From Marsupella aquatica (Eukaryota; Plantae; Marchantiophyta): a stretch of DNA of 64,000 bases. The stretch lies in NCBI GenBank assembly GCA_973895155.1, contig OZ316898.1:9225079-9289078 (forward strand). The letters run 5' to 3'. Shown one piece after another: positions 2 through 57,636 of this stretch (position 1 is the first letter of the stretch; each line of letters starts with the position of its first letter). The translations under genes were made by a program, and so were the position numbers. The notes beneath the pieces are model-generated. The model saw nothing but the letters and a program-made list of their open reading frames with translations, was not told where the DNA came from and searched no databases.

Positions 2-133
2 CAATCCAGTGCTAATCCCACCAAAAAGATCCAACAAACAAATACCCTCCGGTGGATACTGCCAAGCAATAGGAGTGGTATCCAATGGTGAAAGAGTCAC
101 AGGTCCATCTGCAAGAGGCTGCTCTGCTCCTGA
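2..133 (-). pseudogene. Start of a putative C5 cytosine DNA methyltransferase (DNMT3-like) domain within the pol frame
   Basis: In-frame continuation after TAG 134-136: SGAEQPLADGPVTLSPLDTTPIAWQYPPEGICLLDLFGGISTGL. The last 14 residues align with DNMT3 motif I (IRVLSLFDGIATGL). Only motif I is visible. Confidence 0.65.
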
Positions 134-860
134 CTATGGTGTAAAAGCATGACGCCATGCATCATGTACCAATTGTGCTGCTGTTTGTGGCAAGGCCTGT
201 GCAGTGCCCCACACTGGTGGCACAACACTACCAACAGGTAATCCTCGCATGATGTGCTCCTTATGAGACTCCTCCAATGGTGGAACATCTGCTGCATGCG
301 CATTACCCTCAATCAAATCATCAGGTCCAGCAATTAGACCATTGAATGCTGCCAAAGACAATGGTGTGGATTTAGGGCCTCCCACAGGTCCACTAAATCT
401 CACTGGCAATTTTCTCAATCGAGCATCTCCTGATTGCCAATCAGGTCTATATGACACTGATTCCTCCCAAAAATCAAGAATAAATCCCATGGGGTAGAGC
501 ATTGTACATCCCACCAACACATCATATGACTCTGCCTTAGTCAGAATAGCTCGCGCCTGTATCTGTGAGCTATCTATGGTATGACCTTCTTGAATCCTCA
601 AATCAAGAGGTCTCCTGGTAATGTGCTGTGTAGGTGTAGGTTCCCCCAATGAAGTCTGAATGGGAAAGGGACAATCCTCTAGACGCAATCCCAATCCACG
701 TATGGCAGACTTTCCCAACATCAAGGGTTAAGCACCAGTATCCAGTAACACCCTCTCTGGCTGGTATACTGCTCCAGAAGGCCCAACTAATCGGAAGATA
801 CCACTCCGATTATCCAATGATACAACACTAGGTTTAAACCTAGTCCTCTCAAATGTAGAG
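134..860 (-). pseudogene. Retroviral-type aspartic protease domain plus linker of the retrotransposon
   Basis: Manual translation upstream of the listed ORF gives YQPERVLLDTGA*PLMLGK (TAA at 728-730). YDVLVG further on matches the C-terminal 'D(V/I)ILG' motif of retropepsins. Confidence 0.8.
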
Positions 861-3220
861 CGTGCTGGTAAATCCACCAATCTCGCTGCTGCTGCATGTC
901 TCACTAGTAGCAGTAGGTGGCATGGTCTTCACTGCATCAACACTGCAAGTTGCTTCTGCATGGGAAACAACTACTAGAGTGTCCTCACAGAGTGTAGCTG
1001 CCAATTTGAACACTTTTGCAGGACCAACTCCCAAGTTTAGCATGTCTGTCACTGAAAATAATGGGGCGCATACCATGGCAGTAGCCGCCCTCAACAAGGT
1101 ACCCGTCATCCCTGCTGCATCACTACCTGATTCTACCAACTTACCCACATCAGGGTTTGTCCGAACCGGGTTCATAGAGGCAGTCTGAACTGTCTCTGAC
1201 AATATAAAAGACTGAGGAAGCTTTGTCTACCAACGTGCATCCCCCCTTTGTGGATCTAACTCCACTACTGCTCCTCGGGGCTCAAGAGCTTTGGCTGCCC
1301 CACGTGTCAAAGCTGCTGATGCATCAATATGTGCAGTGCCACACATGAATCCCATGGTGGCAAGGTCTCCATCAGCTCCATAAGATGTGGAAGGACCATG
1401 GGATGTGGAAGGTCCATAGGATGTTGATGCCCCATCACCAGAAGTAGGTCTCACCTGGGAACTAGCCATGGCAGCTAGCTGTTGCTCCAATTGAGCAATC
1501 TTAGCATCCTTTGGATCTATGGTTACAGCAGGGGCAGTGTCACCTCCCTGTCTCCCTGCATGTGGCATGCCACGACCACATCCACCGCCTTTACCTCCTC
1601 CTCCTCTTCCCTGATCATGTGTACGGGATCCTCCTCTCCATAACTTAGGATGGAGTGAGAAACACCTATCCTTGGTGTGTCCAGGAGCTCCACAGTGATC
1701 ACACTGTTGCTGATCAGGCGCTGATGCTCCCCCTGATCCTCTATGATCTGGGAAATATCTCTGTGCATGATCCCCACCACAGGTCCAACATCCTGATTGC
1801 TGTCCAGCATAAGAGGGCACAGGTCTCTGGCTGGTAGACTCTCGTGCAGTAGGCTTCTCCCTTTGGCTCTTCCGTGCAGTAGGCTGTGGTGTGGATGTGG
1901 ATGCAGCCTTTGGTGCTTCCTTGGCAAATCCGGAAGTCACCACCTTCTCATTCACCATATTGAGCTCAATGCGCTCAGAAAGTGTAAAAATAATTGCTAA
2001 TGTGGGATCTGCATCCCTAAGCAGAGTGACATCTCTCACTCTGCATCGCAATTCTTTGTCCAGAATTGCATACCAAAACTGGACTGCCTGAGCCTCTATC
2101 ACTCCCTTGGTGACAGTGATCAATCTGCGCATACGAGTGTATGCCTCACATAGACTCTCTCCAGTCTTGCGCTGGAACTCCTGAAGACCCTTCAACTTAT
2201 CAGTTCTTACACCCTGATAGTTCTGCTTCAGTACCTCAAAGAATTCCACCACAGGGTTAAATGTTGGCGCAACTCCAGTTCTTGTCACAATCACACCGGC
2301 AGGAGTAGCAATGGATGCTGCTGGAGTACTGCTGGTGGATGGTGTGCCACTCTGGCTAGTGCTGCTAGAAGAAGCAGCAGCTGTGGCAATGGGTTGGGCA
2401 GCCGCACTAGTGCCATAGGTGATGGACACGTAATTAGGCGACCAATGCTGCCTCCATGCCTCAATCTCAACCAAATGAGCCTTCCAAAACTCATGGTAGT
2501 CATCCATGGGTGGCCCCTCCAAATGCTGAAATAATCCCTTCCATGCCATGAAAGGGGTAAACAATGTGGCATTACGCAATGTCTACATATCGCACCACGT
2601 ATCAAACTCCTGGATAAAGTCATCCAGATCAATCGTGCCAACTGCACCAGAGTATCGTTGTGGGCCCTTTGTAGCCCCGTACATCTCGTCCATATCCCAC
2701 AACAAAGGTGCAACCACCTGATGATGAGGAGAACTGGTCATTGAGTCCTCATCAGAATCACTGTCTGAAGCTGCACTACTGACTGCTACCAATGCCGCTA
2801 GCCGAAACTGTGCCCCACTCCGAGTGAAACCGGTCCGTCGTCCATCGGGTAATCCAACAGCACCAGAAGAATCCGTGGTGACCAACCCTAACCTAATCTA
2901 TGTGCTAACCCTAAGGGCAATCTATCCTTGTCAGCACCACAAGCACTCATCATGGTGTGTTGGGCATCATTCCAACATCACCAAGAGAGAAATACACAGC
3001 ACACTAGAATGTCCAGTTGCAAACCCGGATCACTCCTATGGAATCAAGCGCCCACACCGAACCAACATGGCGCATAAACAGGAAACAAGTGTGGAGAGGA
3101 TCCAATCAACAAGAATAGTCAAACACTAACTCTCCACACCAAGAGTGATCACACATTGATCAAACAAATATTCATAATGTTCAATGAAAAGCCTTCATAA
3201 TAGGCTTCATGATGTCCCAA

Positions 3221-4467
3221 TGTTATAGATGAGAAACCATGCACAATTGGTTCAATCTGTGTATTTAGATGAACTTAGAACTATCAAAACCTTCTAAAGA
3301 GCCTCTGATTTGGCTCGAAACAAGGCTCTAAGCAAACCAAAAAGTGTATAAAGCTTCCTGACGCTTGAATCTAAATAACAAGTTGTGAAAACTTGTGTGT
3401 ACACAAGGTGGGATGAGAACTTGCCAATTAAGTGCTTGCGGCTGGGAATAGCCCCGAGATGGATGACCTTCTCGTGCTCGACCTCGTGCCTCCCCTCGTG
3501 CTCACGACCCGAAATAGCCCCGGGATGGGTGACCTCGACCTCGCGCCTGCTTGTGCTCGCGATGGGTGACTTCGCGCTCGCGGTTGGGAGCACTTTCGGG
3601 ATGGGTGACCTCACGCGTCGCCTTATGCGCGCACAGTTGTGTGTGTACACAAAACAGAATTCGTCGGGCTCAGAAATGGCAACATTTGTCACTCGAAAGC
3701 AACGATTTCCTTCACAAAAATGGCAACGTCGATGGCTCTCGACCTCTACAAACCTGTTGCGCACGGTTCTGGGACATTTTGCGAGCGTCCCTTGACAATA
3801 AAACACTGCGAGCACTCAAAATTCCAACAGATCTGTCCACAAAACAGCAGTGCGATACAAGCAGCAGCCTTTGGCCATCTCTTTCTAGATCCAGATCTAG
3901 ACTTTCGACTCAATCCAGATCTAGACCAGATCTAGATCCAACAACGTTCAAGCTTGGCCAGAACCAGATCGAATAGCAACAGAGTACTCAAATAATAGAA
4001 TCAACGATTCAAGAAACATGAATCCGCGTCAAACACAAATCCAATTGATTCGAGCTACCACGAACCGTCACCTTCAACGACAAACTCAGACTGAGCTACT
4101 ATCCGCACAACAGAGTTTGAAGCTCATGATCTTTCAATGTAATGTCCATCCAATCGGCACAACGATCCCGATCAACAATACCCCATCGATCCCGCACCGA
4201 TCCGATCACACACGTATGTCAAGCCAACGCACCTTGCACTACTCAAGGAATCCACGTTACACAAGCGGAGCTCACAGCCACCATAGCCACTCAAGCTCCT
4301 CTCTCTCCAAGGCTCAACATTGAAAGATGACCTTTCAATGCCTCACAAGTGAGAAGTACCCTCTCACACAAACCTGACAAAACTTTATCAGCTCATATAG
4401 CACACATACCAAACATACGAATCTAGATAGTACGATACACTCTAACACTACCTAGAATGGTGTGACA
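3221..4467 (-). mobile_element. Candidate 5' LTR of the left-edge retrotransposon (boundaries uncertain)
   Basis: Lies upstream of gag. The minus strand would read TGTCACACC...ATAACA (TG..CA ends; alternative outer end at 4549, TGTAAC). Contains internal tandem repeats (GATGGGTGACCTC-type) and TCTAGA/AGATCT palindromes. No convincing PBS was found and no second LTR is in the window. Confidence 0.35.
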
Positions 4468-9175: not shown

Positions 9176-12100
9176 ATGGATCTGAAGAAATTTCTCGACC
9201 AGACTGTCCGCGAAGTGTACGTTTCGCGAGATCAAATGTGTTTCATTTTCACCCCGTTGTCCCGGCATATGCGCAAATTATAGATCCTTCTGGTTGATGG
9301 TCTACTGGTTGTACATTTTGCTGGATCGCATCGCTGATTTGGACATTGAGAGTTGCGATGCAAATTGAGCATTGTGGCGAAGATTCGGGAGCATCCCGTC
9401 GTTGTTTTGATTTGCTGCGAGATTGTGAGTTCATCTGGCATTCGCGGTGATCCGTCTCGAACAGTCTACATGTGTTCATGGCATTGTTGACGCCTCTCAC
9501 GCTTCTAGTGCGGATCTGCTGTTGTGATGCAGGAAGCGGGAAGTGAACAAGAAAGTCCTGAAGGTCCCCGAAATCGAACAGAAGGTGATGTAGCCCAAAC
9601 CGGCCTCCCACTCTTGTTGCCCTTGTGTCCCGATCTGAACCATCATGGCTCGTTTCCGCAAAATGAAGTCCATTTGCTTGTTGATCCATGTGGTTCTCGT
9701 AGACGTCGATTGTATATGTTTCTTACGCAAAACCCTCCCAGCCTATAGGGTTACCAGTCCCTCGAGTTTCTTCGATGGTGGAAAGTCGTATGTCAAGAAT
9801 AGATATTACTAAAGCGTCCAGAGCTCGTCAGGTATGCGACTGCGTCGCATGTTCTTGTGATTTTGTTTCTTAGCAGACATGGATGCTCCTGTGGCTTTTT
9901 TGTGGAGAAAGGTGACATTAAAGCTCACAGTAAGCTTTTCACAATTGTCAGGTTTATGAAGCAACGAGCAATGAGCCTTGGGGGCCTCATGGAACTCTTA
10001 TGGGAGACATTGCCCAGGCCACGCGGAATTAGTAAGGCTTCCCATGCCCTTCTGCTCTACGACAACCGCATTGTGCTCTGCATTCCTACCGCTTTCTCAG
10101 TTTCATCTTCCTCATTTCCTGGGATCTTAGTTGCTTTAGCGAAGTGCTGACTCCTTTCAATGTCTTGGATCACTTCAGCAACGAATATCAAATGATCATG
10201 GGGATTTTGTGGAAGCGCCTCAACGATAATGGGAAGAACTGGCGGCACGTTTACAAGGTGAGGGCTCTCTCACGTGGATCGTTTGTTCAAAGTTTGTCTC
10301 GCATTCACTGTCAGGTTGTAAGTGCTCGTAATTCGACATCAATGGTTCGCGTCTATTCTGATGCAGTTTGCACCTTCGGTTCCTCTTTTGTTCCAGTTTG
10401 GCTAACTACGTCATCCGCAAAGCTACGAGATATGACAGGGTATAACCTCTGCTGAGTAGGCCCCAATGTAGCTGTGTACTGAGAGTTGACCTTTGATTGC
10501 AGTCATTGACCGTTCTGGAGTTTCTGGTCGCCAACGGTGCCGAGAGGATCATTGATGAATTGCGTGAGCATGCCTACCAAGTTCAGGTGAGCGGAGTATT
10601 TTCCGGATCAGCTCTTAATCTGAATGTTGACCTCATGTTTTGAGTTCCCTCTCGATTCGACGCTTCCTTTGTCTCATGACTCTCCGACAAGACCTGATGA
10701 TGTTGGTCACTGGCTGCTTTGTGATTTCTTTCAGACACTCGTGGACTTTCAATATGTTGAACCAGGAGGAAAGGACCAGGGGATCAATGTGAGAAAGAAG
10801 GCTCAATCTGTGGTGGCACTCCTTAGTGACAAGGAGAAGATTCGAGAAGTGCGAGCGAAAGCTGCTTCGAACAGAGACAAGTGCGGCTCGCTTCGATCCT
10901 TGCCCAACATGCCTCGCATCTGAATTGTCCGTCTGTTGATCTACGATGTGATCGGGTGTGATCTTATTGTATGTTGAGCAATTCTCACGCCTGCTACTAC
11001 AGGTATCGTGGAGTGTCGAGTACTGGGAGCTTTACCAAGTCCGGCAGCTATTCCAGTACTGGAGGAGGAGGATACGGTGATTCTTATAGAGACGAGGATC
11101 GCTACGGTGGGAGCAGTCGCTCGGGGCGAGATGACGATAGATATGGTGAGAGGGATAGGGACAGGGAAGACCGTTACAGGGATGAGCCATACAGGGACAG
11201 GGAGGATCGATATAAGGATGACGATCGTTCTACTCGAGACACTTCTGGAGACAGATACAGAGACGACAGAGATCGTGATCGGTTCGAGGATGACCGCTAT
11301 GGATCTAAGGGGGGCGATGGTTATGGCAACGATAAATATACAGACGATATCAAAAGTGAGGGTTCTGGCTCCGGGTTCGGTAAAGACCGAGACCGAGATC
11401 GGAGTTTTGAAGAGGACGACCGGTATCCCCCCAGGTGCTTCCCAGATTTGCTTAATCGGGTCGGGCCGGGAGTCTAGAGAATTAGCTGGAAGCCGATTCC
11501 CTTGATATCCTCAAGCGTGAAGTCCTACTTTTTCTGCCAGTTGTAATGTAGCCTAAGGTGATGAACTTCTGTGTGTCTAATTCTAGTTCTGTCGTACCCA
11601 GGCGCGGAAATGCAAGCGGGAGCGGGAACAAGGCAGATGAGTACGGCCAGGATGATCGGTATGAATTCAATTTTAGCCTCCCAGATCTTTTCGATTTTCA
11701 CACACAAATTAACTCTTCTGAAACCAATTTAGATGCGAGAACACCACGACTACTTTCCTAAGGGCAATCTACGGGGTTGCAGTTTTTACAATTCAGAGTG
11801 TGGGGAGCGTGAATTTCCTAAATGGAGCTGCGCAGTGCAGTGTACAGTATATTCCAGGACACTTCTCGTGCTCGTTTCTTATGGGCATTAACTGAGGACA
11901 TCATCGAGCTGCCGCGAGCACTAACGATTCAGAAAAGAGAAACCTAAACTTTCGGAACCAATAATCGCATAACTGCAAGAAGTTTTAGGTAGTTGGCACA
12001 TATCTAGAGGTCGATCGTTGACTTGCTTGTAAAATGTCTTGCACGCTGGGCTTGGAACAATACCGGTTAGTGATGGACACCCTTTTCATTGACAACTTAG

Positions 12101-14380
12101 ACACCACAATGCCGCTGTTATGTTGTTATCTTCTCCAGTGAGTTTAAAGTAGTTTTTGCGAAATTGTGCAGAGAGCCGAACGGCTTAGCTGCAGCAGTGG
12201 CAAGAGCACACACGAGCCAGTCGAACTTGTCTCAAACCTCCAGTAATGCCAGTCAAGGCACTGAGAAGAAACCAACAGCTTCTGTGGGAGGCTCGTATTT
12301 TGCAAGCATGCCTTCAACGGCAGCCGAGGATTTCGATGATTTTGATCCTCGTGGGAGCTTTAGCGCTACCAGTAAGTGTCTCACGTTCTCGTATACTAGA
12401 TCTGTACAAAACCTAAAGGGAGTTTGTCCGAAAGAGTTGGATCTGACTTTAGGCTAATTAGGGTTTCACTCGGTAACATCAGAAACATTGTCGTTGGTCT
12501 CATGCTGTGCACCTGTAGGTTTAGCTCACCCCATCTATAGCAACATTCTGTGCACCTGCAGTTTTAGTTTACACGATCCATTGTAACGGGTGGATCCTAC
12601 ACGTGTCACCCGAAGTTCTGAGACTTGGAATTTTTGTGTGACGTTTTGTGGGCACCGTATTGGTGATGCTAGTTCAATCTTAACCTGGCAATTTGCTGAT
12701 AAAGCTAGTGATCTTGATTTTTCAGGTGCCCCTGCTCGAGATGATGATCCCTTTGGTGCCTCAGCAGCTGCACCAGCCCCAGCTCCAGTGTCGGTACCAG
12801 CTCCATCTTTACCTCCAGTAAAGAGTACCAGCGGTATAGAGGATCTTTTTGGGGATTCAGGTTTCGAAACGTCGTTTAACGCAGTCCCTGCACAAGAGCC
12901 CAACACAACTGTCCAGGTAGTGATCAGTGGTTTAACTCGTGGCCTCAGCTAGGGCGAGCTTCGCTGGCACATCTAGTACTATTCTATGTCTTTCTATTTC
13001 AGCAAGAGCATGCTTGTCTATCGATTCAAAGACAAACCGGAGGAAGCTTGTTCTTCCTCTAAACGGGAAGGCAAATGGCATGTACATCCAAGATTTACTA
13101 TCAGCCATGTGTTGCAGTAATTATGAGCGCATACACATATGGCTTCACCGTCAAATGTCCACATTTTGGCACCCCTTTTTGTTGTCTTTTGAACAAAGCT
13201 GTCCACTTAACCGATTACATCTTGTGTTTTCAATCTGCAGGGAAATGGCTTGCAGAGCGAGGATCTCTTTGGAGAACCAGCGTTCACTGTCCAGCCTTCG
13301 ATGACTTCGTTCCCTGCAGCACCTCCGGCACCCACTGCGTTTCCTGCACCTACATCGTTTCCTGCACCACCTCCGGCACCAACTTCATTTCAGGCGCCAG
13401 CGCCGGCACACACTTCATTCCAACCCGTCAGTAACGTTTCTAATGGAAATTTCCGAGCTTTCGATGAGTCCAATTCCTCGTTTGGCGCATCGTCCTTCCC
13501 TGGTCCTCCCGCCAATTCTGCATCGATATCTCCTCAGAGCAGCTTTCTCCCTCCTCCACCACCACCTCCTACTGCAAGCTATTCTTCTACAAATTCATTC
13601 CAGGCCCCATCAGGTTCAGCTCAGGCACCTAATTTCCCTTTTACATCAGGGTCTAGCTCTCAAGTACCTTTTGGGCAGGGTCCTTTTGGAGGAACCACTT
13701 ATGCGCAAAGTGCTAACACAAGTCTCGTATCATCTCAAGTGCCACCGACTAAAAGCTATGCCCCTCCCCCTCCTAAACCTCAGCAGAAATCTTTTCAAAC
13801 GAAGTCTGCAACATGGAATGATACCATCAGTTCTGGTCTAGTTGACCTGAATATATCTGGACCAAAGACCAATCCTTTAGCGGAACTGGGAATCGATCTG
13901 AAGGATTCAATATTTTCTGCCCAGGAGTTACGAAAGAGGGAAGAAAAGGTTCAGCCTACTGCGGGTAATATGGGTAGGGCGATGGGCTCTGGAACTGGTC
14001 GTGGGTTGGTTGGTGCAGGTGGTATAGCTGCTCCGCCTCCGCCATCTATGGTCGGTGGTATGAATATGGGAATGGGGATGGGAATGGGGGTGAGACAGCC
14101 TTCCATGGGAATGGGTATGGGCGGTAATACAGGGTTCATGGGGGCCCCAGGTATGGCACCCAATCTAGGCTATGGTGCGGCACCGGGTATGGGAGTAAAT
14201 CCAGGGTATGGTATTTCCCCAGGAATGGGGATGACTCCAGGCATGAGCCAGGGTGTAGGTATGGGTATGAACCCGGGTATGGCTGGTTATGGTCCAGGAA
14301 TGGGGATGGTTCAGGGAGGTTATACTCAGGGAATGGGGATGGGGGGTTATCCCAATCAACAATACAGTGGGTATCGGTAG
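9176..14380 (+). CDS. ENTH-domain epsin-like clathrin adaptor (plant EPSIN2/3-type), about 833 aa; exons 9176-9216, 9533-9584, 9952-10031, 10179-10257, 10503-10586, 10735-10880, 11003-11434, 11602-11658, 12172-12371, 12726-12916, 13241-14380
   Basis: Spliced translation [45 protein letters not shown]...[31 protein letters not shown]...[10 protein letters not shown] is an ENTH domain. All introns are GT-AG with consistent phase (total 2502 nt). The protein has DFDPRG, DPF and DLF adaptor-type motifs and a Met/Gly-rich tail. An extra small exon between 11659 and 12171 cannot be excluded. Confidence 0.92.
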
Positions 14381-15999: not shown

Positions 16000-16360
16000 A
16001 AATACAATCGAAGAACCCACGGTAGACAACTTCGATGTAAAATTTAAACGAAGAGCCCGGGGACAGGAATATGATGCACAGCAAGATTAGATACCTCTGT
16101 TGGATGTAAAATTCAAACGAAGAGCCTGAGGGGCAGGAATGTGATGCACAGCAAGAATAGATATACCTCTTTGGTGCCCAGAGAGGCATGGCAGTGGTGG
16201 GCATGGCTGTGGTGGCTCATTTGAGTGGAGACTGATAGGTTTTGGGTTAACTATTGTGTGGTGGATCACTTGAGTGGAGACTGATAGGTTTTGGGTCCAA
16301 CTATTGTGTGGTGGCTCACTTGAGTGGAGACTCATAGGTTTTGGGTCCAACTATTGTGAG
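16000..16360. repeat. Local tandem repeats: two copies of about 70 bp, then three copies of about 51 bp
   Basis: GATGTAAAATT.AAACGAAGAGCC...GATGCACAGCAAGA occurs twice; TTGAGTGGAGACT.ATAGGTTTTGGGT..AACTATTGTG occurs three times. Confidence 0.85.
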
Positions 16361-18013
16361 AGACTATTTCCTTTCTCTGAGCTTTCACAGATTTCTCCAT
16401 AAATTTTTTGTTTTTATTTTAAAAAAAATACAGTGGGCGAGGAAAGTTATCCAAAATGAAGGGACTGACAATGCAGCACAGTAACCTTTCCTGTGCTTTC
16501 TGGGCACGAAGAACATACTCTAAGGCATTCCGACAACTCCCTAAGCTTGCATGTGTGAAAGGCCTCCAGGATGTTAATGTTCTATTGCGAGGGCCAGGTC
16601 TAGAACGCTAGAGGCCCTTCAGCACTAGTACAACTGTGCTTCACTCATGCTCCATTGAGCAATACCCAGTCCTGTCCTGGATGTGGACCAAATTTTGACC
16701 CCTGCCCTGCAATCCTACATTTTGAGCCAGAGCTCTATAGATGCGAAACCAAGACCGCACTCTAGTCTTACCTTGACCATACTTTGGAAGGTGGTGTTTT
16801 TTTTTGCCTTGAAAGCCAAAAGTAAACTCATCCAACAGAGGATAGACTTTCCACTTTGGAGTATGCACCACTGTAGGGAGCTCACAAGGGGGGATGAGAC
16901 CCACAGGACCCAGACCATGGAAGGAGAGAGGGTTGAACCAAGGCCCCAAAGCCAAGGGCTGAAGAGAAACCAGGACTCCCACTACTACACCCCACCCACA
17001 CACATATCCTCCACACCCCTTGCGTGTGGAAGGGGATTGAACCTGGGACCTCTTGATTCTAGATTCTTGATTCGACCTCACAAGGGGGGACCAAAGCCAG
17101 TTGGTTGGAAGGTGGTGTTCTTCCCTAGCAAATTTGTAGGTGTAAGTTATCTCTGGCATTCATTCAAGCTAATAGTCGAAGGATGTACCTATTTCTTTTA
17201 CTAAAACTACTTGTTTCAATAGTACTTTACATCACTAGCCTGATTACCTGTCCTCAAGAGTAAATAGAAGTGAGGGCAAAACCCTATTCTTCTTTATATC
17301 CCATTCATGGTTGACCCCATCTTTGTTTTCTGTCTACACCCTCACTTTTAGTTACGCCCCCTTAGAGTACATCCATCACCCACAACCTGGGCCATAGGTT
17401 ATCCTACACAACACTCCTTACTGCCCAAGAATCTGGGGAGAATTGTGTAGGGTAACCCATCCCCTCAATGGGGGCATTACAGGCCATGGCCCTCAAAATG
17501 GGGACGATTAACAAGGTAATACATCCATCCATCCAATGATACATATTAGAAAAATCATGCTTGGAAGGAGATGCGGCTTTAAGCCATGTGGCAGTCCCAC
17601 AGAGGTTCAAATCAACAAATTTTCTTGGGAGGCTAGTGAGAGTGTTACCATCAATTCCTTCAATGAAAATACAAAGAAAAATTCATGAGTATAGTTTAGG
17701 AAGGCCCACTTGTAAATAAACAAACTTAGTTATGATACCAGATGTGCAAAACCTCCATAAGTGTTTATGAATACTTCTGAGTAAGTGCACGACCCTCACA
17801 CAACTCCTTCAACTTACACCTAGAGTAAAAGTTGCACTTAGGCAAGAGGATCAAGTTTTGGGCGAGGGTGTAGAATTTACGAAGGAAGTCACAAGAATGT
17901 CAACTCACAAAGGGCCCTTTGCAGATCGAGGCACTGTACACTCTTATCCATAAGTGCAAAAAATAGGTCGAAGCAATGTACACTCTTAAGTGCACAAAAA
18001 TATGACGTAGTGC

Positions 18014-18559: not shown

Positions 18560-20560
18560 ATGGTGCTCTACAATTTCAAGAAGATCACGGTAGTGCCGTC
18601 CGGGAAGGATTTCATCGACATCATTCTGTCTAGGACGCAGCGCCAGACGCCAACTGTGGTTCACAAGGGCTATGCAATCACCCGAATTCGGCAGTTTTAT
18701 ATGCGCAAAGTGAAGTTCACTCAGTCGAATTTTCATGAGAAGCTGTCCACGATATTGGAGGATTTTCCGCGTCTCGATGACATCCATCCTTTCTATGGGG
18801 ACCTAATGCATGTGCTCTACGACAAGGATCACTACAAGCTTGCTCTCGGGCAGTTGCACACGGCACGCAATCTTATCGAGAAGATAAGTAAGGATTATGT
18901 CAGGTTGTTGAAGTATGGGGATTCTCTGTACAGGTGCAAGCAGTTGAAGAAGGCGGCGATGGGACGGATGTGCACCATCATGAAGCGAGTGAGCCCTAGT
19001 TTGGCCTATTTGGAGCAGGTAAGGCAGCATTTGTCTCGCCTCCCTTCGATTGATCCCAACGCCAGGACTCTCTTGGTGTGTGGTTATCCTAACGTGGGCA
19101 AGAGCAGTTTCATCAACAAAATATCCAGAGCTGATGTAGATGTCCAGCCCTATGCTTTCACCACAAAGTCGCTCTTCGTGGGTCACACGGACTACAAGTA
19201 TTTGAGATGGCAGGTGATCGATACTCCTGGAATTTTGGACCACCCATTAGAGGACCGGAACACTATTGAGATGCTGGCTATCATGGCACTTGTCCATCTG
19301 AGGGCCGCTGTGCTTTTCGTTATGGATTTGTCGGGGAACTGTGGCTATACGATTGAGCAGCAGGTTGCCTTATTCCATAGCATTAAGCCTCTTTTCGCGA
19401 ATAAGCCTCTCATAATCGCATGTAACAAGACAGATTTGCAACCTCTAGAAACCCTACCCGAAGATGAGCGAAAGCTGATTGCTGAGATGGCGAGGGAAGC
19501 AGCAAAATGTTCTGGTGGGCTGATTTCCGATGGGGCTGGTGAGGAGCATGAGTGCTTGCTGTCTATGAGCACCTTAACAGATGAAGGCGTCATTGGAGTT
19601 AAGAATACGGCTTGCGAGAGGCTATTGCAACAACGTGTCGAGGTGAAGATGAAGTCTAAGAAAATCAATGATGTGCTGAATAGGATCCATGTTGCTCTTC
19701 CACGTACAAGGGATCACAAAGAGCGGCCTCCTTGCATTCCAGAGGGTGTTGTCACCAAACCTATGGAACAGAGGCCCAAGAAACAAACAGAGAAGGACCT
19801 GGAGAATGCAAATGGTGGCGCTGGAGTGTACTCTGTGAAGATGACTAAGCACTACATGCTCTCGAATGATGAATGGAAGGATGACATTGTGCCTGAGATT
19901 GTGGATGGTCATAATATCGCCGACTTCATTGACCCTGATATCCTTTTAAGGCTTGAGGAGCTGGAAAGGGAAGAGGAAGCCAGGGAAGCTTCCGCTTTTG
20001 GAGACCAGGAGATGAGTGAGGAGGACCTCACTGCCGAGGAGCACGAGGCCCTCGCGGCTATCAGAAATAAGAAGAAAAAGTTGCTTGAGGAGCATAGGCG
20101 TAAGAAGAGGACGGCCGACAATAATCCGGTTATGCCACGCAAGCATGATAGGGACGGGGAATTTACCACCGGGAGGATGGGCAGACATCTTTCAAGCTTG
20201 GGGTTAGATCCATCAGCTGCCATAGAAAGAGTTCGGAGCAGATCTGTATCCAAACGTGGGCGTAAGAGGGAGAGGTCCGTATCAGAAGCTGGCGATGCTA
20301 TGGACATTGACCAACCCAATAAGCGTCTCAAGTCAAGGTCGAGATCGAGATCCACTGTCCGCCCAGCTTCGGAAGTTGTTCCTGGAGAAGGCTACAAGGA
20401 TTCAGCACAAAAGTTGAAGGCAATCAAATTGAGCAAGACATCTGTGAAGCAGAGGAATAAGGATGCCAGGAAGGGTGAGGCGGACAGGGTAGTTTATAAT
20501 CCTAAGCCCAAGCATTTGTTCTCCGGTAAGAGGGGTACAGGCAAAACAGACAGACGGTGA
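18560..20560 (+). CDS. NOG1: Nucleolar GTP-binding protein 1 (60S ribosome biogenesis GTPase), 666 aa, uninterrupted CDS
   Basis: N-terminus [34 protein letters not shown]; G1 GYPNVGKS, G2 YAFTT, G3 DTPG, G4 NKTD; NOGCT region (GGAGVY...[17 protein letters not shown]); C-terminal [18 protein letters not shown]. Confidence 0.98.
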
Positions 20561-24601: not shown

Positions 24602-24925
24602 TGTTGATTCATGAGCTAACTACAATTAGTCTAACTTGGATTAGGAATTAGTTAATGTTAGCGGTAGTGCTGTTGTGCATATAGCCAGGGCTGATGCCAG
24701 ACCCTGGTGGAACTTAGGCTCATTGTTACGAAGCTAGTTGAGAGATAGGGAGAGCTTGTGTTGTGGATGCTTGGTATGGCCGGTCGGCCTAGAGTGCAAT
24801 AAAGCTCTTGTGTGTTCCCTTGGACGTAGCCTCATGTGGAGGTGAACCACGTCTCTCTCTGTGTCGACTATTATGCGTTGGATGGTTCATGGGCTTATTG
24901 TTACGAATGTCGTCTATGCTCAACA
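24602..24925. mobile_element. Solo-LTR-like repeat (324 bp, TGTTGA...TCAACA), homologous to 61301-61921
   Basis: Perfect 6-bp inverted termini. Shares collinear blocks with the 61.3-61.9 kb copy (CTACAATTAG.CTAAC, TCATTGTTAC, GAGAGCTTGTGTTG, CCTAGAGTGCAATAA, TGAACCAC, TGCTCAACA). No clean TSD. Confidence 0.55.
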
Positions 24926-30500: not shown

Positions 30501-32732
30501 TTGGGAATTTTTCCCAAAAGTGAGACAATGTTGTTGTGAAGAGGTGAGATTTGGCCAATTTTGAGCACCCAAAATAAAACGGTAATTGTTTTTGTCGGAG
30601 GGAATCCCCAAAAATAATTAAAGCAACCGTAGGTACGAAGCTGTACTCTTTTGTCTCGTCCACTGTACAGTCGTCGGGGTCAGGACGGTGATGTGACCTT
30701 GTCCCCAGGAATGAAGACTTTCTATAATTATTTTCTTACAGGTGCCCGCTTGCAGTCCTTGTTTCCTTTTCTGTCTGCCCGCACCAAGAACGGACCGTCA
30801 GAAAAGTTACAGTGCCTTGGTGTTTACCAGAGGACGATCACGTTCGCACATGCTCTGCACAAAGTTAATCCTTTTTGACTTTCAAGTAGTATGCACCGCG
30901 ATGCCATAAACAAGTTGCTTGTATTTCTTTGTATTTTTTCACTTAAAAAAAAAAAACAACGTATAGACTAATGATAGAGTGTACCTTGCTATGTAAAAAA
31001 TCTTCGAAGATCATTTACTAAAATATGCAATCCAAATATTTTTCCAAGTTTGGCAAGCACAACCTAAGATGGCTGAAGTTGTTTTGGTTTATTACACATT
31101 ATAGTTCCAAATATAGGCTATTTTTCAATAATTATCTATCCATTGAGCCAACTTTTTCAGAATTCGTACGGTACTGGAGCTTACACGGTATAGGTATATA
31201 AGCTGTCACTCACTCCGGCTCCGTAATGAGCTTTGAAAGCAGCTGATGAGGAATGAAATCAAATCGCACGTCGAAAAATGGAAGATGGGTTGCCGAATGT
31301 CTTGAATGCTGAGGAGAGCATCCTTTCTTGTTCGAGAGAATTAGCATTACAATGCGTTGAAGATTCACCTCACACGACGCAGATGCAATTACAGCGCTGA
31401 GTGTTCATTGATGACTCTGGGAGAGCTGGAAGTGAATGAATGGTGACGACTGATGAGAGTCTGAGACTTTGAGGCATGAAATTGGCATGAATGCAGTGAC
31501 TGATTGATTGAGTGATAGTCTCTCAGTCTCTCCCTCACTCGGTCACGGACTCCTTTCTGGTACACATACGGTACTAGACGGACGCCATTGTGGGTGGAGT
31601 TCTGTGCATACGGCTAGCAGTCTATCAAAGAGGTGCTGTACACTGTTGGTGCAATAGTCTATAACATCGTAGTAGACTGTCTTGTAGGCAGCTTTGCTTT
31701 CCTCAGTTCCGACAAGGTTCAGCTGGAAAAGGTGAGAGAGGAAAAGGTCTCTGTCTGTCCCACGGGAAGCTCTTTTCCCGAGGCAAAGACGGTGTGGATG
31801 GGTCATTTATTAGTGGGTTGGGTACTTTGGGTAGCTTCCATGGGAGGGAGGAATGAATGAATGAATGAATTCTCCGCCGATTTACTGATGCTTGTCATCG
31901 ATGGTTTTGTTCTGTGGGCCGTAATGTGATGATGCTTGTGCGTGAGTAAGTAAGTTGTAGAAAGGTCTCTGGTACTGGTGGGTCCTCCACCACTTGGTAA
32001 ATCAAAGACGAGAGAGACGGACAGCCGAGCCAGCCTGCCTGCCTGTATACGTGAGTGATGAGTCTTTTGCAGGAAAGCAAGCTGTGGAGGGGAAAGAGAG
32101 ATTGCTGCTGCTGCCCGTCCTGCAGGCTTCTTGCTATTATGCCACCATGTCGTAGCTGTAGACTTCTCTTCTTCTTCTTCTCCCCCATTCTCACCATTCG
32201 TTTCTTCTTTCCTTCCTTCCTCGTCCGCTCCTCCTCCTTCTCCCAATCCACCCTCTCAATCATACGCACTTCTCACTTCCAGCGTGCACGTGCTGTCTTG
32301 CGTTGTGTGATGCCTAGTACTGATTGTTCGGTTGGTTGATTGATAGAGCTGCTCTGTCTGTGCTGTGCTGGTGCAGAGCATTGTGCATAATCTCAGTTTC
32401 GACATGGGTGCTGCGGTTGCCCCGAGACGCGTACGAAGAGGCAAACTGAAACAGGGAGAATGCCTTGCTTCTGTTCCTCTCTCGGTCAAATGCTAACGTT
32501 AGCAACAATCAGTACTCTGGTCACTGGAACGAACGATCCTCGGACGATCTCGGACGTTGGCAATAATTTGTGTGAGGTGAAGGTTGTTATGTGCATGCTT
32601 GTAGCTCAGATAGCAGGACACTGAGCAAGTCAGAATTGCCAGCAGCACGAACAGGACAGCAGGAGCAAGCAAGCGAACTGTAGAAGCAGTGTATTCAAGT
32701 CCTAGGTGAGGAGAGGCAGGCATTCTACAGGT

Positions 32733-35700
32733 ATGGGTATGGAGCCCGTTGCTCTCCCGGGGTCCGTTGCGGCTACTCCAGAGAGGAAGAAGCGGCAGGA
32801 ACAGAAGCTGCCCAGTCCAGACAATGTGGCGTATAAAGGACTCAACAGGAAGAAGACACCATCGTCACCACAGTCTGTGATCAATTCTTTCTCAGCAGCT
32901 CCCTCAAGAGGTCCATCTCCAGCTCGGTCTCCTGCTCCCCGTTCTCCAGCTCCACTGATCTTCCGCGCACCCTCCCCAACGATCAGGAACAGGAAATTGG
33001 GCCGCCGAACTTCGTTCAAGAAATCCGCATCCAGCAAGTCTCGGAGAGAACTGGAGAACGGAGCTGCATCTCCAGCTCCTAATGGTGGTACAGAAACGGA
33101 TGAGAACGGCAAGTGTGATAAAACCATCAAGAAGAGTGTCAGCAGCGACGAGGAGGAAGAAGGGCGCTTGAATCAGGGGCCCTGGTTTTTGAAACTCGCC
33201 AAGACGTATCATGCGCAAGGCGACAATCCCATCAAGGCTTTTCAGTTTGCGTCCCGAGCAGTGCAGTGCTTTGAAAAGAGCGCCGCTGGGAGATCCAGCT
33301 TGGACCTTGCGGTGAGCTTGCATATATTGGCAGCGTTGCAATGTAGACAAGGACATTTCGAGGAGGCTGTTGGTTTGTTGAAGCGATCTCTGAGCATACC
33401 GGATCGGAGTCCGGATGCTGCCATTGACCATACCTTAGCTACATTTGCTGGCCAGATGCAACTGGGAGACACATTGGTGTTGGAGGGCAAGCACCAGCTA
33501 GCACTCAACGAGTATCAGTCTGCTTTGAAGTTGCAGAAGCAGGCCCTTGGGGAATTAGATATACGGGTTGCAGAGACATGTCGATATGTAGCCGAGGCGC
33601 ATTTGCAGGTAAACAACAACATTCCACGCAATGTAGTAGGCTTTATACATACTGTCCTCAGATATGGAGCCAGCATGTTTGTGTCACCTTCCAGTTTCTC
33701 AAAGATCGTGAGCAGCTCGTTTAGGATATGCGACTGTACGTCAGATATATTTTCGATTTGTTGTTGCTTCGTAAAGAGGATAAATAATTGCGAAGAGTTG
33801 TTAGAGCCAGAGGCAACATGTGTTATTTCTAGTTGCTCCTAGACCCTGGAACAGATTTCAATCTGGGACACATTCTTACTACTCTCAGCAGAAACGGACA
33901 GTCATGCAGTTCTGCAATAGAAACTTCCTTCTACCCTTTCCCAGTTACGGTAATTTCATCATGTTTTGCCGTCAAATGATGTGGACTTCACTAAGTTGTC
34001 TGCTCTCCTTGATTACTTCTGCCATTGTTGCTTCCCGTCCCTTTGGACCGTTTTTCCTTCTTTCCCTCGAAGAAAGGGATAGAGACGACGGAAGAGATCA
34101 TTGACTTTATGAAGGTTGTTCTAGACAGATTAGACGCAGTGCTGCTTTTTGCATTTGCTCTTAGTTCCACAGTTTGGCCTCGTTTTGATGAGTCACCCCT
34201 TTCAAATGCCACAAATAACAAATGATTAAGCTGCTCTCTGGGTGATCGTATTCTGTTAATAAACTACTTCCAGACAAATGCAAGCAGCAATTTGGAGAAT
34301 ATATAAAATTCCAGAGTAAATGTCATCGGTCGTTTCAGTTGGAGCCTCACTATCGGTAAATGGGGGCACGTTATGGGGAGAGGAATTAGTGAGCTTGTTT
34401 GTAAGATTATGTTTGTGGATGCCGATTTTGTCCCCTCATCCAACTTGTAGGGTGGTGACATTTAAGTAATATGAACGACTCACTGCTTGTTAACAAATGA
34501 CCCATTTATGCAGGCTTTACAGTTTGACGAGGCTGGGCAGCTGTGCGAGCTAGCTCTGCAAATTCACAAAGAGAAGAATGAATCGGGATCAGTAGAGGAA
34601 GCAGCAGACAGGCGGCTAATGGCTATGGTGTGCAGCGGAACAGGAGACAATGAGGCGGCACTGGAGCATCTGGTTGTGTCCAGCACTCTTTTCCTTGCGA
34701 ATGGATTAGAGAGCGACGTTGCAGCCGTGGATTCCACGATAGGAGATGCTCTCTTTGCTTTGGGCAGGGACACAGAGGCAGCTCTGTCTTACCAGAAAGC
34801 ACTAACAGTCTTCAAGGCCACGAAGGGGGAGACTCATGCTTTGGTAGCCTCAGTCTTACTGAGGTTGGCAGAGCTGTCTATGAAAACAGGGAAACCCAGA
34901 GAAGCAAAGACGTACTGCGAGAGTGCGTTGAGAATTTTTGGAACCCAAGGTGCGGGTCATGCCCTTGAGGACATTGTCTACGGCTTGACAGATATCGCTG
35001 GAATATACGAATTGTTGGGTGAACGAGAACAGGCCATCACTTTGCTGAGTCGGGCTGTGGACATTCAAGGGTCTGCACCTGGGCAGATATTTACAACGGC
35101 TGGAGTTGAAGCACAGCTGGGGATACTATATTGTATGACAGAGAAATTCGAACAAGCATATAGTCCCCTAAAGAATTCTGTATCAAAGTTCAAGTGTGCC
35201 AGTGACGGGAACAAAACCTTGTTTCTTGGGTTACTATTGAATCAACTGGGGCTCACTGCTTTGGAATTGGGTGAGATCGAGGAGGCCAAGGGTGTACTTG
35301 AGGAATCTAGGAGTGTGATGGAGGGCGCTGTGGGCTCGACGCATGCAGACACACTGTATGTTTGTAGTAACCTTGCTGGGGCATATGACGCACTTGGAAG
35401 GTAATTTCAGAGGTTCCCTGCGACTCCTTGCGCGTCACAGCTTTGGAACGTTCTATTCAAAATTCTCTGCAAGTCCAGGAAATTACAAGACCACCCTTGT
35501 GGTTGCTGTTATTGTATCCTCCGAGATTTTGTTTTCGAGATTGTGTCCTCTCTCTCATGCTTTGGGTGCTTGGTCCTACAATGCAACGCGAGAGTCCTAT
35601 CAGTTTCGAACCTACTAGATATTTTGCCTTGGTATCTCAATTTGGCTAGAGTCTTTGTGCCGTAATTCTTGTGATTAGTTCAAGCGAAGGGCTCCCTCCA

Positions 35701-40162: not shown

Positions 40163-41465
40163 TCAAAGGCGAAGGGAAACTATGAAGGGTGGCTCTAGGA
40201 AGCCTTTAAAGGGAGGAAACCCCTCTGCTTTCTCCCACACAAGTTCGGTGTCCTCGACCCCGAAGCCTTTACTTTGAAGAAGACCTAGAACCCTCGAAGT
40301 ATGGAATCGACGTCGGTTGCCCGGTCGTGAGTCCGAGTCACTTACTCGAGATGGTTCGGACTGGACCTCGTACCAAACCATTGCTAAAAGCTCACCATCC
40401 AAGTGTACAATTTTTCCTGGTCCTAACCGCGGGGCGTTCACCAATCCTTCAATTGAATACGAACAATGATGTAGAAGTGTCTTCGATTCGTTCTCAATAT
40501 CAATGGTATAAATGTCCAACCCACCCATGTAATGCAATTTTCCTTCAGACATGAAAAATGTTTGGGAGAGCGAATCTCTCCAAGGATCGGATACGATTCT
40601 CCATGTATTCTGTACAGGGTTATAAATCTCGAAATAATTTGCAATGCTTACCTCCCTCCATCTCACTGCAAAGGCAGGTCTAGCCTGCTCGTTAGCATTG
40701 AGACGGTTTCCGCCGTAGACCAACAGCTCGTCTCCAAATGTTCCAACTTGGTGACCGAACCGCCAATCTGCCATGGGCTTGATCGCAGTCCAAGCATCTA
40801 CTTCGGGATCATACACCTCTGCTGCATCAAGAGGTGTGCGGAAAGTAGCACCACCGACTGGTGTGCGGGAAATAACACCACCAAAGACGTAAATTTTGCC
40901 ATTGATAACCCCACATCCAAATTCATGTCGTGCTACTAGCATACCTGCACACCTTTTCCATGGCCTCTGCCCAGCTTGATCCAGCTTGATCCAGCATATA
41001 CACTTCATTACTGCTGATTCCATCAGAGTATCCTCCCAAAATATAGACTTTTCCATGCATCGTTACGCATCTGCAGGCGTGTAGAAATTCACGTCGAACA
41101 GTTCTGAAGGGAGGAAGTTGATAGCAAGCGTCGTCTTTCATGGAATATAGAACAATGCCATTGGTATTATGAGGAGAATACTCATCATCATTATATTTAA
41201 TGACAGCAAGCGTGTCTGTTGAGTGAGAGTGAACTCTTGCTTTATAAATTTCGTGACGTTCAGCTGCTTGTTTCCAGGGACGGCTTACTGATGTTAGAGT
41301 TTGAATTGTTGTCCATGGCAAGAGTGTTACAATCTTGTGCAAGGTGATAGTGTTAGGAATCCCTGGAAGCAATTCCGTGCTGGCGACTTTCTCGTCTTCC
41401 GTTTGATTTCTCTGTGGCTGCCTTACCGAACTCGTGGCTTCCTCCTCGTCTGCTACTCCAGTCAT
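40163..41465 (-). pseudogene. F-box/kelch-repeat gene, frameshifted by a 10-bp tandem duplication (430 aa if repaired)
   Basis: N-terminal F-box-like LLPGIPNTITLHKIVTLLPW...VSRPWK; kelch motifs GKVYILGG, GKIYVFGG, AEVYDPEVDAW and EIYNPVQNTW. CCAGCTTGAT is duplicated at 40971-40990, exactly where the two ORFs switch frame. Confidence 0.85.
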
Positions 41466-41479
41466 CGCTTATGAATCCT

Positions 41480-47700: not shown

Positions 47701-49026
47701 AGTGTCTGCCATGGGATTCCACTCACTGACGATGCATTCCTCTGAGTTGAAGAGTTGAGTGATCTCCTTGTTTTGGGCCAGCCCCTTGAAGCTCCTGAAG
47801 AAAAGTTTAGAGCATTTATCTCCCTCCCCGATCCACCTTGATTGTAGGACATAGTCCATCCATTGGACCCGCTCAACTTCAAATTCATGAAGTAAGATTT
47901 CTGCCTCCTTCACCGCAGCTTGTTTCCTGAAGTCCTGTGGGTTGGTTTCAAGAAGCAGTTGTGCTAAAGCCAGATTACGGCGTAATGTAATTTCCCTTTG
48001 ACGCCTTTCAGCAGCCTTCCTCTTGCCCCAACACCTGTCAATCTTCCTAGCTTTTTTGAGACAGCGAATGAGAGTGAGGTCCGGTGGCAATCCGTTCAAA
48101 TTGCACAAAAGTTCCTCCTGTTCCCACATGGTGATGATCCGTTCCTGATAGTCCCCCTGCTGCTGGTGGCTGGTATTCATGCGGTGCTGTGATGGCCTCG
48201 GAATGGGGACAAGAGGTTCGACAGTGGCCAACACCGGTGCATGGTCCGATAAGGTAATCCCGGGCAGAATGGTTGATGTAACTGTGAAATTCCCTTGGAA
48301 CGTCCCCTTGGAAGTGTAGATTCTGTCAAGCCTTCTCAAGACCCGTCCGCCAACCAGCACCTCATTCGTTCTGTCAGGTACGTGTCAAAAGCTCCTTTTG
48401 TTATCCCAGCTGAATCGAAGATGCCCCTGTTGCGCCTGAAAGGAGTCCACCAAATGCAGCCTCCTCTTGAGATGTTGCCAGGCTCTCTTCTCACTGCCCG
48501 CAAGGGTAGATCCCTGGCCCCCACAGTAGTCAGAGATATTCTCGATCATATTGAAGTCGCCCAATAGCATCCAAGAAAAGGATGGATCCAGCCGATTGAA
48601 AAGTTCCCTCCACAAGTTAGTCCTTCCGCGAGCAGAATTAGGTGCGTAGATTCCAAGGAAACCCACCTTGCCAAGCCCAGCGTGGACCATACAGCACCAA
48701 GCAGCCCGCCCGCAAGTTAAAACCCCCTCCGAGACCACAAATTGAAAGAGACTATTCCTAATGGCAATCGCCATTCCACCCTGGCCAGCCTCCACCCTGT
48801 TATTACGTGTGGAATGAGCTCCATCCGCTGCAGGAGCACAAACCCAGTGTGCAGTTTGCCAAGTTTCTTGAAGCTTATTGATTCTACCAGCCCGAAGCTT
48901 GTGTTCCTGTATGCACAAAATATCAGGGGAATGTTGTAGCCCCTCCAGGATGAATCTGGCTCGTAGTCGACGCCGCCTGGATGCTAGTCCCCGCAAATTG
49001 TATGTCAGAATGGTGAGTTTGGTCAT
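44735..49026 (-). pseudogene. LINE ORF2 (AP endonuclease, reverse transcriptase, C-terminal zinc finger), about 1430 aa if repaired; one nonsense codon (48385-48387) and one frameshift (about 46541)
   Basis: EN motifs TYNLRGL, LCIQEH, GDFN, RLDR, SDH. RT motifs KCPGPDG, RPITLLN, KLDITKAFD, RQGCPLSP, LFADD, KLLGV. C-terminal CTRC...EDIVHCIWNC (zf-RVT). Confidence 0.93.
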
Positions 49027-57500: not shown

Positions 57501-57636
57501 CTCTCTTGTGCGGCGTCGAGAGGTACTCTTCGTGCCAAGCTCCGTTACTGAGTGCTATTACAAGAGGAGGCCGACGGTAACCTGATGTAACTCCCGCCGC
57601 ACCGCCACCACCACTTTCAATGTCTCTAAAATGCAT
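54594..57636 (-). CDS. MORN-repeat membrane protein (plant family often mislabelled 'SET7/9-like'), about 608 aa; exons 57636-56234, 55609-55351, 54758-54594
   Basis: Two hydrophobic segments, then tandem MORN repeats (YSNGDVYEGEFHQGRCSGNGVY, YTGDVYSGEWSNGQSHG, FANGHRYEGSWHEGRKQG) and a conserved tail KAVTCANRAANAARVAAVKAVQ. Splice sites are GT-AG and phases are consistent (1827 nt). Confidence 0.92.

What the first reader, a model, noticed from the sequence alone, without database searches (positions are those of the whole stretch)
2..760. LTR retrotransposon apparently encoding its own DNMT3-like cytosine methyltransferase downstream of the protease
Seen: the minus-strand pol frame carries the protease active site LLDTGA (DTG at 734-742) and about 200 further residues up to TAG 134-136. 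It then stays open to the window edge as ...WQYPPEGICLLDLFGGISTGL. The ORF track misses this segment. Known: C5-methyltransferase motif I is a hydrophobic strand followed by (D/S)LFxGxG, and DNMT3 enzymes read IRVLSLFDGIATGL. The match includes LF.GI.TGL with identical spacing. A normal Gypsy has RT after the protease and a normal Copia has integrase; neither starts with this motif. As I recall, DNMT-carrying retrotransposons were reported from the dinoflagellate Symbiodinium and the charophyte Klebsormidium (de Mendoza et al. 2018), and I know of no well-characterised land-plant examples. Inference: this is a gag-PR-DNMT-(RT-RH-IN) element in an embryophyte genome that may methylate its own cDNA or insertion. 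This copy is dead, but the family may have intact members.
Basis: partly seen in the sequence, partly recalled or inferred. Interest (0 to 1): 0.92.

Follow-up and report, generated by a model that had tools for sequence, protein, structure and literature searches.

The report
Bryophyte-type retrotransposon carrying its own methyltransferase
This is a broken copy of a jumping gene whose relatives in liverworts and peat mosses carry a complete DNMT3-like DNA-methylating domain, likely used on their own new DNA copies, and whose rearranged ends suggest it inserts from a DNA circle; in the papers I could search, such elements are described only from algae.

Summary
Real, and richer than reported. 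The window holds the 5' half of a decayed Ty3/Gypsy element: gag, protease, then only the first ~16 codons of a methyltransferase before the window ends. All 17 longer homologues continue into a DNMT domain; 15 are named from Marchantia, Calypogeia or Sphagnum. A relative's domain is closest to DNMT3A by sequence and fold and shows purifying selection. Complete relatives read gag-PR-DNMT, an in-frame stop in a CAA context (39 of 41), then RT-RH-IN-PHD: the DNMT sits in the Gag frame, and Pol likely needs readthrough. Their ends are A-coding-B-A-B or A-coding-B with 4-bp duplications. B+A carries the LTR hallmarks (PPT before B, self-priming site after A, the latter also in the window), so these look like 2-LTR and 1-LTR circles opened at a palindrome inside the LTR (inferred). 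Closest known: KnitGypsy-Dnmt3 of Klebsormidium. Enzyme activity, readthrough and circle integration are untested; the window's own 3' half is unseen and its host unnamed. This scan noted the family twice before on other, peat-moss-like DNA.

The parts
4140..4467 (-). Candidate 5' repeat A (3' part of the LTR); starts TGTCA at 4467, flank CAGA would be the target duplication
   Evidence: Weak profile hit to relatives' repeat A at 4322-4208, E 0.025; pairwise test inconclusive (score 155, shuffles up to 156); position fits the self-priming pair. The 4467 boundary is tentative.
4317..4328 (-). Putative transcript start (R start), 12 nt complementary to the primer-binding site
   Evidence: Perfect 12-nt complement to 4140-4129; 1 of 139 other window segments reaches 12 nt. 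Same geometry as relatives, different letters. No TATA box seen ~30 nt upstream in the window.
4129..4140 (-). Putative self-priming primer-binding site (Tf1 type), no tRNA-type TGG site
   Evidence: function inferred from Tf1 (PMC7175516 passages).
1227..2897 (-). gag region, first conserved Met at 2693; stops at 2585-2583 and 1229-1227
   Evidence: 50-53% identity to Marchantia proteins over 505-562 columns; frames.
1662..1703 (-). CCHC-type zinc knuckle (second of two; the first, from 1790, is decayed)
   Evidence: Read from the translation; homologous to PF00098 hit in relative L027.
849..1226 (-). Gag-protease linker, with a frame change near 900-850
   Evidence: continuous in P0003/P0020.
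425..769 (-). Aspartic protease domain, DTG at 742-734, broken by TAA 730-728
   Evidence: PF13650 E 0.0016, below cut-off; 72% identity to P0003 over the whole PR-linker stretch.
50..424 (-). Protease-DNMT linker, TAG at 136-134
   Evidence: Aligns with the linker of all relatives.
2..49 (-). Start of the DNMT3-like C5 methyltransferase: strand 1 and motif I (LDLFGG from 34); runs off the window
   Evidence: 35 of 35 last residues identical to P0003, which goes on to motifs II, IV, VI, VIII, X.

Best explanation
The window holds the 5' half of a dead Ty3/Gypsy retrotransposon from a family that carries a complete DNMT3-like methyltransferase at the end of its gag-protease frame, which is likely packed into the particle at Gag level and likely methylates the element's own new DNA, which then likely integrates from a circle. 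Steps: (1) shown in relatives: order A, gag-PR-DNMT, stop, RT-RH-IN-PHD, PPT, B-A-B. (2) inferred: RNA runs from R in A1 to R in A2; most ribosomes stop after the DNMT, a few read through UAG-CAA to make Pol. (3) inferred: reverse transcription self-primes as in Tf1 and gives a normal linear copy with LTR = B+A. (4) inferred: the copy closes into a 2-LTR or 1-LTR circle and integrase opens it at the palindrome CA-GC-TG inside the LTR, giving A-coding-B-A-B or A-coding-B with 4-bp duplications. (5) inferred: the protease-released DNMT methylates the cDNA (CG by analogy with DNMT3A and SymbioDIRS-Dnmt3), so a new copy arrives looking like host DNA or pre-silenced, and the PHD finger steers it by reading histone tails.
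For: Domain order. Motifs I, II, IV (PCQ), VI (ENV), VIII, X all present in 8 of 8 proteins of the window's clade checked. DNMT3A best PDB hit by sequence (E 4.8e-11; DRM 1e-4, M.HaeIII 3e-4) and by fold (pLDDT 96; 29 of 29 listed matches DNMT3A/B/C, best E 9e-21), both run on relative L027. dN/dS 0.15-0.17 between subfamilies, dS near saturation. Junction codon TAG 31, TAA 8, TAC 2 of 41, next codon CAA in 41 of 41; ORF1 proteins of Marchantia, the Calypogeia cluster and P0003/P0020 end at the matching place; unnamed relatives such as P0192 have one continuous 2300-aa frame. Ends: 4-bp duplication in 6 of 7 loci holding both ends; 0 of 22 5' ends preceded by B; purine run before B1 in 6 of 6 B-A-B loci and 7 of 10 A-coding-B loci; 2-nt spacer at B1|A2 in 6 of 6 and at A2|B2 in 5 of 5, the latter GT (3) or AT (2), where GT is also the pair of letters between PPT and TG. 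R-start/PBS complement of 10 nt or more in 13 of 22 relatives and 12 nt in the window, against 2 of 139 control segments at 10 or more. The window groups with P0003 (99) inside a clade (99) with Marchantia, Calypogeia and Sphagnum.
Against: No activity data; the Klebsormidium domain gave no methylation in yeast, called inconclusive by the authors. CpG depletion is inconsistent: 0.30 in the window element and 0.28 in L027, but 0.55-0.57 in L023 and L035 against 0.31-0.40 in their flanks. No RNA structure or extra synonymous conservation after the stop (z -0.6 to +0.3), 40 of the 41 junctions come from one subfamily, several are the same insertion assembled twice, and that subfamily has an in-frame ATG three codons after the stop, so reinitiation is possible there; only L027 fits the CAR-YYA motif fully. 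End structure was seen only in the Sphagnum-like subfamily; the window's 3' half is unseen. A-coding-B forms could also come from recombination between B1 and B2.
Confidence: 0.6

Rival explanations
1. Same architecture, but the DNMT acts on chromosomal DNA (the element's own integrated copies or their surroundings) after being made in excess with Gag, as a self-limiting or chromatin-shaping device, not on cDNA.
For: The DNMT lies in the Gag frame, away from RT and IN; de Mendoza et al. list slowing of transposition as an option.
Against: A Gag-fused domain would be expected inside the particle with the cDNA (established retroelement biology); no targeting domain was found next to it.
Confidence: 0.2
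2. The ends work like DIRS/PAT split direct repeats: the RNA runs into B2, the internal B1-A2 junction is the template for new ends, and A-coding-B copies are recombination products.
For: de Mendoza et al. describe the Klebsormidium repeats as DIRS-like; the layout A-coding-B-A-B is the same.
Against: A purine tract before B1, a self-priming site right after A1, TG and CA at the ends of B+A and 4-bp duplications fit a normal LTR = B+A and a DDE integrase; no tyrosine recombinase domain was hit in the ORFs scanned.
Confidence: 0.25
3. The domain is a catalytically idle or RNA-directed DNMT3 fold kept for binding nucleic acid or SAM.
For: No activity of the Klebsormidium domain in yeast; other subfamilies have ECQ in place of PCQ at motif IV.
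Against: All catalytic motifs are kept in the window's clade and C103, E146, R186, R188 are at least 90% conserved in 55 rows; related SymbioDIRS-Dnmt3 domains methylate CG.
Confidence: 0.12
4. Chance motif, or a one-off capture or assembly join of a host DNMT3 gene.
For: Only about 16 codons of the domain are in the window; no Pfam hit there.
Against: 17 of 17 homologues continue into a DNMT; intronless, in frame and under purifying selection across subfamilies; thousands of contig pieces from four runs lie on 1-900 with no dominant loose end at the linker.
Confidence: 0.02

Closest known systems
KnitGypsy-Dnmt3 of Klebsormidium nitens (de Mendoza et al. 2018, PMC5890265; read parts 1-4 of 7, passages, term search of 3 supplements; main supplementary PDF and Fig. 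4c not seen)
   Same: Gypsy-type domains with an intronless, unpermuted DNMT3-like domain under purifying selection; A-coding-B-A-B repeats. A K. nitens protein (GAQ93235.1, P0083) is gag-CCHC-PR-DNMT with 38% identity in the DNMT.
   Different: Land-plant hosts (Marchantia, Calypogeia, Sphagnum). The authors state the DNMT shares the ORF with RT and RNase H; in this clade a conserved stop separates them. PHD, self-priming, PPT, target duplications and the A-coding-B form are not in the text I read ('PHD' 0 occurrences). The tree does not resolve whether the two are sister groups.
SymbioDIRS-Dnmt3 and the EpiLTRs of Cymbomonas and Euglena (PMC5890265; bioRxiv 10.64898/2026.05.21.726589, passages)
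   Same: Retrotransposons with a built-in cytosine methyltransferase; EpiLTRs pair it with a chromatin reader.
   Different: DIRS use a tyrosine recombinase; EpiLTRs carry a DNMT4-sister domain, DAM and a chromodomain.
Tf1/Sushi and moss Tcn1 chromoviruses (PMC7175516 passages; PMC6317226 section 9)
   Same: No tRNA site; about 11 nt at the RNA start pair with the PBS.
   Different: Those have chromodomains and ordinary LTRs; this family has PHD, DNMT and permuted ends. RT clade placement was not tested.
PHD-bearing Gypsy elements of Chlamydomonas (Gypsy-7a_cRei, REM1; PMC9940879 and PMC6673714 passages; the REM1 paper itself is not held)
   Same: PHD finger on a Gypsy polyprotein; subdivided LTRs are drawn for Gypsy-7a.
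   Different: No DNMT is mentioned for them in the passages seen.
HIV-1 2-LTR circle cleavage by integrase (PMC4372172, passages)
   Same: A DDE integrase can cut a palindromic CA..TG junction in a circle and integrate the product.
   Different: There it is a back-up at the LTR-LTR junction; here the site lies inside the LTR and accounts for every 5' end seen (22 of 22).

Membership tests
Ty3/Gypsy LTR retrotransposon | Order gag-PR-RT-RH-IN | tested here: met
   Relatives L027, L023, P0192; the window itself shows only gag-PR.
Ty3/Gypsy LTR retrotransposon | TG..CA termini and 4-6 bp target duplication | tested here: met
   4-bp duplication in 6 of 7 loci, 5 of 6 independent insertions.
Ty3/Gypsy LTR retrotransposon | Two full, identical-type LTRs flanking the coding region | tested here: not met
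   0 of 22 5' ends carry B; forms are A-coding-B-A-B and A-coding-B. It is Gypsy by its proteins, not by its end layout.
Ty3/Gypsy LTR retrotransposon | Placement in a named plant clade (Tcn1, Phygy, Selgy, Chlamyvir, OTA) | not testable with these tools
   No reference RT set. Duplications (CATA, AAGG, TGTT, ATTA, CACA) do not fit the NCGN preference given for Phygy.
DNMT3-like C5 methyltransferase | Motifs I, II, IV, VI, VIII, X in unpermuted order | tested here: met
   8 of 8 clade proteins checked; only motif I lies in the window.
DNMT3-like C5 methyltransferase | Closer to DNMT3 than to other C5 methyltransferases | tested here: met
   on relative L027; no tree with host DNMT3, DRM or bacterial enzymes was built.
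DNMT3-like C5 methyltransferase | De novo 5mC activity | not testable with these tools
   Needs an assay.
KnitGypsy-Dnmt3 lineage | A-coding-B-A-B repeats | tested here: met
   L023/L044, L033, L035, L041; not visible for the window copy.
KnitGypsy-Dnmt3 lineage | DNMT in the same ORF as RT and RNase H | tested here: not met
   In-frame stop in 39 of 41 junctions; met in other unnamed subfamilies such as P0192 and P0047. P0083 from K. nitens also ends just after the DNMT.
KnitGypsy-Dnmt3 lineage | One clade with the Klebsormidium domain | tested here: inconclusive
   Quick tree leaves the base open; no outgroup.
DIRS/PAT tyrosine-recombinase elements | Tyrosine recombinase, no DDE integrase, no protease | tested here: not met
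   rve, H2C2 and protease present; no recombinase hit in the ORFs scanned.

The most novel reading that the evidence does not exclude
An old green-lineage group of Gypsy elements, alive in the model liverwort Marchantia, has moved its integration site to a palindrome inside the LTR and integrates 1-LTR and 2-LTR circles as its normal route, while loading a DNMT3 enzyme at Gag stoichiometry by placing it before a leaky amber stop, so that each new copy is methylated before it lands.
Probability: 0.4. Interest if true: 0.88.

Novelty: new variant of a known kind. Interest (0 to 1): 0.74.

Why it matters
Why a transposon would carry the enzyme that silences it has stayed open since 2018, partly because the hosts were hard algae. 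Marchantia polymorpha has several unbroken gag-PR-DNMT frames, genetics and methylomes, so the question becomes directly testable. If the end structure is read correctly, this is an LTR retrotransposon for which circles, usually dead ends, are the substrate of integration, and ordinary LTR finders would mis-annotate or miss it. These frames also inflate DNMT gene counts in bryophyte annotations.

Tried and rejected
No genome is held for the window, so the 3' half of this copy was not read. First metagenome scan with the decayed window protein found nothing; viral contigs gave nothing. No RNA holder listed. RNA structure after the stop: not above shuffles in 3 of 3; synonymous conservation in the first 30 codons no higher than further on. 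CpG depletion as a sign of self-methylation: inconsistent. Pairwise alignment of the window's candidate repeat A to L035: within the shuffle range. Read support for the 5' boundary at 4467 was not obtained. tRNA-type PBS: no TGG after repeat A in 19 of 19. The careful DNMT tree did not finish; a quick tree was used, with 22 near-duplicate or fragmentary proteins and all domains under 235 aa left out. Host lineage: the window's NOG1 is not in the collection, so 'bryophyte' rests on the element's named relatives. Searches of earlier findings by sequence and by place were empty. REM1 paper not held.

Full report
Observation. Upstream lie gag (first conserved Met 2693, stops at 2585-2583 and 1229-1227) and a frame change near 900-850. 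The copy is dead. No genome is held, so everything beyond position 1 is taken from relatives. Contigs from four public runs pile on 1-900 in hundreds to thousands of pieces, and most depth lacks the stops at 730 and 136: a high-copy family with copy-specific decay.

The motif is the start of a real methyltransferase. A search among longer proteins gave 17 hits of 5910 candidates: 11 Marchantia polymorpha, 2 Calypogeia fissa, 2 Sphagnum, 2 unnamed. PF00145 passes its cut-off in 14 of 17 and a local profile finds the domain after the protease in 17 of 17. The closest, P0003 (72% identity), shares the window's last 35 residues exactly and continues with motifs II, IV (GWPCQ), VI (ILENV), VIII and X; the same holds for 8 of 8 proteins of this clade checked. 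The domain of relative L027 hits human DNMT3A best in the PDB (E 4.8e-11), folds with pLDDT 96 and matches DNMT3A/B/C in 29 of 29 listed rows. Between subfamilies dN/dS is 0.15-0.17 with dS near saturation; within the decaying subfamily it is 0.62-0.96. On a quick tree of the part the window holds, the window pairs with P0003 (99) inside a clade (99) with Marchantia, Calypogeia and Sphagnum proteins. The host was not identified; a bryophyte is inferred from those relatives.

Whole-element anatomy, from 79 metagenome loci. Order: gag with CCHC, PR, DNMT, RT, RH, IN, and a C-terminal PHD finger (PF00628, E 2.7e-8). Of 44 loci reaching the start of the RT frame, 3 rearranged ones were dropped; of 41, the codon before it is TAG in 31, TAA in 8, TAC in 2, and the next codon is CAA in all. 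Forty of these belong to one Sphagnum-like subfamily and some are the same insertion twice; L027 is the one divergent locus and reads TAG CAA CCA, which fits the plant-virus readthrough motif UAG-CAR-YYA (PMC3159437 passages). ORF1 proteins of Marchantia (1278-1281 aa), of the Calypogeia cluster and P0003/P0020 end at the matching place, whereas P0192 is one 2300-aa frame with all domains. Readthrough is thus inferred; no RNA structure or synonymous signal backed it, and an ATG after the stop leaves reinitiation open in the Sphagnum-like group. The consequence either way is that the DNMT is made with Gag, in excess over RT and IN.

Ends. Repeat A (339 bp) starts TG at 22 5' ends, none preceded by repeat B. 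At the 3' end six loci read B-A(-B) and ten read B followed by flank. Of 7 loci holding both ends, 6 have an exact 4-bp duplication, among them both forms (L023/L044 and L035; L003 and L022); L062 is rearranged inside, L015 has one mismatch. B+A has the marks of an ordinary LTR: a purine run before B1 (6 of 6 and 7 of 10), TG at the start of B, CA at the end of A, a TATA-like box at A138 in 16 of 22, and directly after A1 a site complementary to the sequence about 30 nt past that box (10 nt or more in 13 of 22, two of them on the adjoining stretch), as in Tf1 self-priming (PMC7175516 passages). The window has such a pair with different letters, 12 nt at 4328-4317 and 4140-4129, reached by 1 of 139 control segments; this supports a 5' end near the TGTCA at 4467, which is otherwise weakly supported. 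The A2|B2 joint is CA, two letters, TG, as expected from joining the two ends of a linear cDNA; the B1|A2 joint is the palindrome GACA-GC-TGTC (intact in 3 of 6, spacing kept in 6 of 6), and it is where the element meets host DNA. A staggered cut after CA on both strands would leave integrase-ready ends. A 2-LTR circle opened there gives A-coding-B-A-B and a 1-LTR circle gives A-coding-B. This is inference; HIV integrase cutting palindromic circle junctions is a precedent (PMC4372172 passages). Recombination between B copies, or a DIRS-like template mechanism, remain rivals.

Function. Most likely the protease frees the DNMT in the particle and it methylates the cDNA, so the copy evades sensing of unmethylated DNA or arrives silenced; the PHD finger likely guides integration. 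Against: no activity of the Klebsormidium domain in yeast and inconsistent CpG depletion. I put the architecture at about 0.95, the enzyme being active at 0.8, cDNA as its target at 0.6 and circle integration at 0.6.

Known versus new. De Mendoza et al. 2018 (PMC5890265; parts 1-4 of 7, passages, term search of three supplements) describe KnitGypsy-Dnmt3 with DIRS-like repeats and the DNMT in the RT frame; Marchantia and Sphagnum have 0 occurrences in the files searched. Two later papers from that group refer to these elements as found in 'streptophytes', citing 2018 (passages); their supplements and trees were not seen and could include land plants. Searches found no paper describing a land-plant DNMT3 Gypsy, the stop, or permuted LTRs; subscription papers, Repbase, the main 2018 supplement and the REM1 paper were out of reach. 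The wider family is large: 300 clusters at E 1e-30 or better with a three-sequence profile; of the best 150, 73 have the DNMT between RH and IN, 21 after PR and 56 show the DNMT alone, with named members in Klebsormidium, Closterium, Haematococcus and Monoraphidium. Two earlier notes of this scan report the family, one with the PHD, from peat-moss-like DNA; I saw them after this analysis and count them as agreement, not support.

Verdict. A real land-plant-type member of a rare class, a new variant of a known kind; interest 0.74, driven by testability in Marchantia and by the odd ends.

Noticed in passing
P0120, P0122 (Haematococcus lacustris), P0143 (Monoraphidium neglectum) and many unnamed proteins: A second architecture, PR-RT-RH-DNMT-IN-PHD, with the related DNMT between RNase H and integrase; 73 of the best 150 clusters. 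Not seen in the papers read.
   Followed up: partly
P0047, P0119, P0122, P0126, P0192: Motif IV reads GWECQ, not GWPCQ, in several subfamilies; the cysteine is kept.
   Followed up: no
L043:5538-5819 and L062:15899-16180: Part of A, the start of the PBS and B joined directly, with an inverted piece of A nearby; a rearranged or miniature form.
   Followed up: no
window 44735-50701, minus strand: LINE-like element with four long ORFs, RT by Pfam; CpG ratio 0.63 against 0.30 in the Gypsy copy.
   Followed up: partly
window 18560-20560, plus strand: Intronless NOG1 GTPase gene, 666 aa.
   Followed up: partly
window 32706-35404 and 40163-41468: TPR-repeat gene and kelch-repeat gene.
   Followed up: no
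window 10962-14380 and 55219-57669: Exons resembling an epsin-like adaptor and a MORN-repeat protein (labels recalled, no Pfam hit for the first piece).
   Followed up: no
window 16208-16404 and 51429-51529; 24711-24834 and 61708-61831; 28841, 43378, 59886: Dispersed non-coding repeats, one with a 50-nt tandem unit.
   Followed up: no
L023:19841-20108 and L043:12290-12602: AT-rich arrays with an 11-nt period near two insertions.
   Followed up: no
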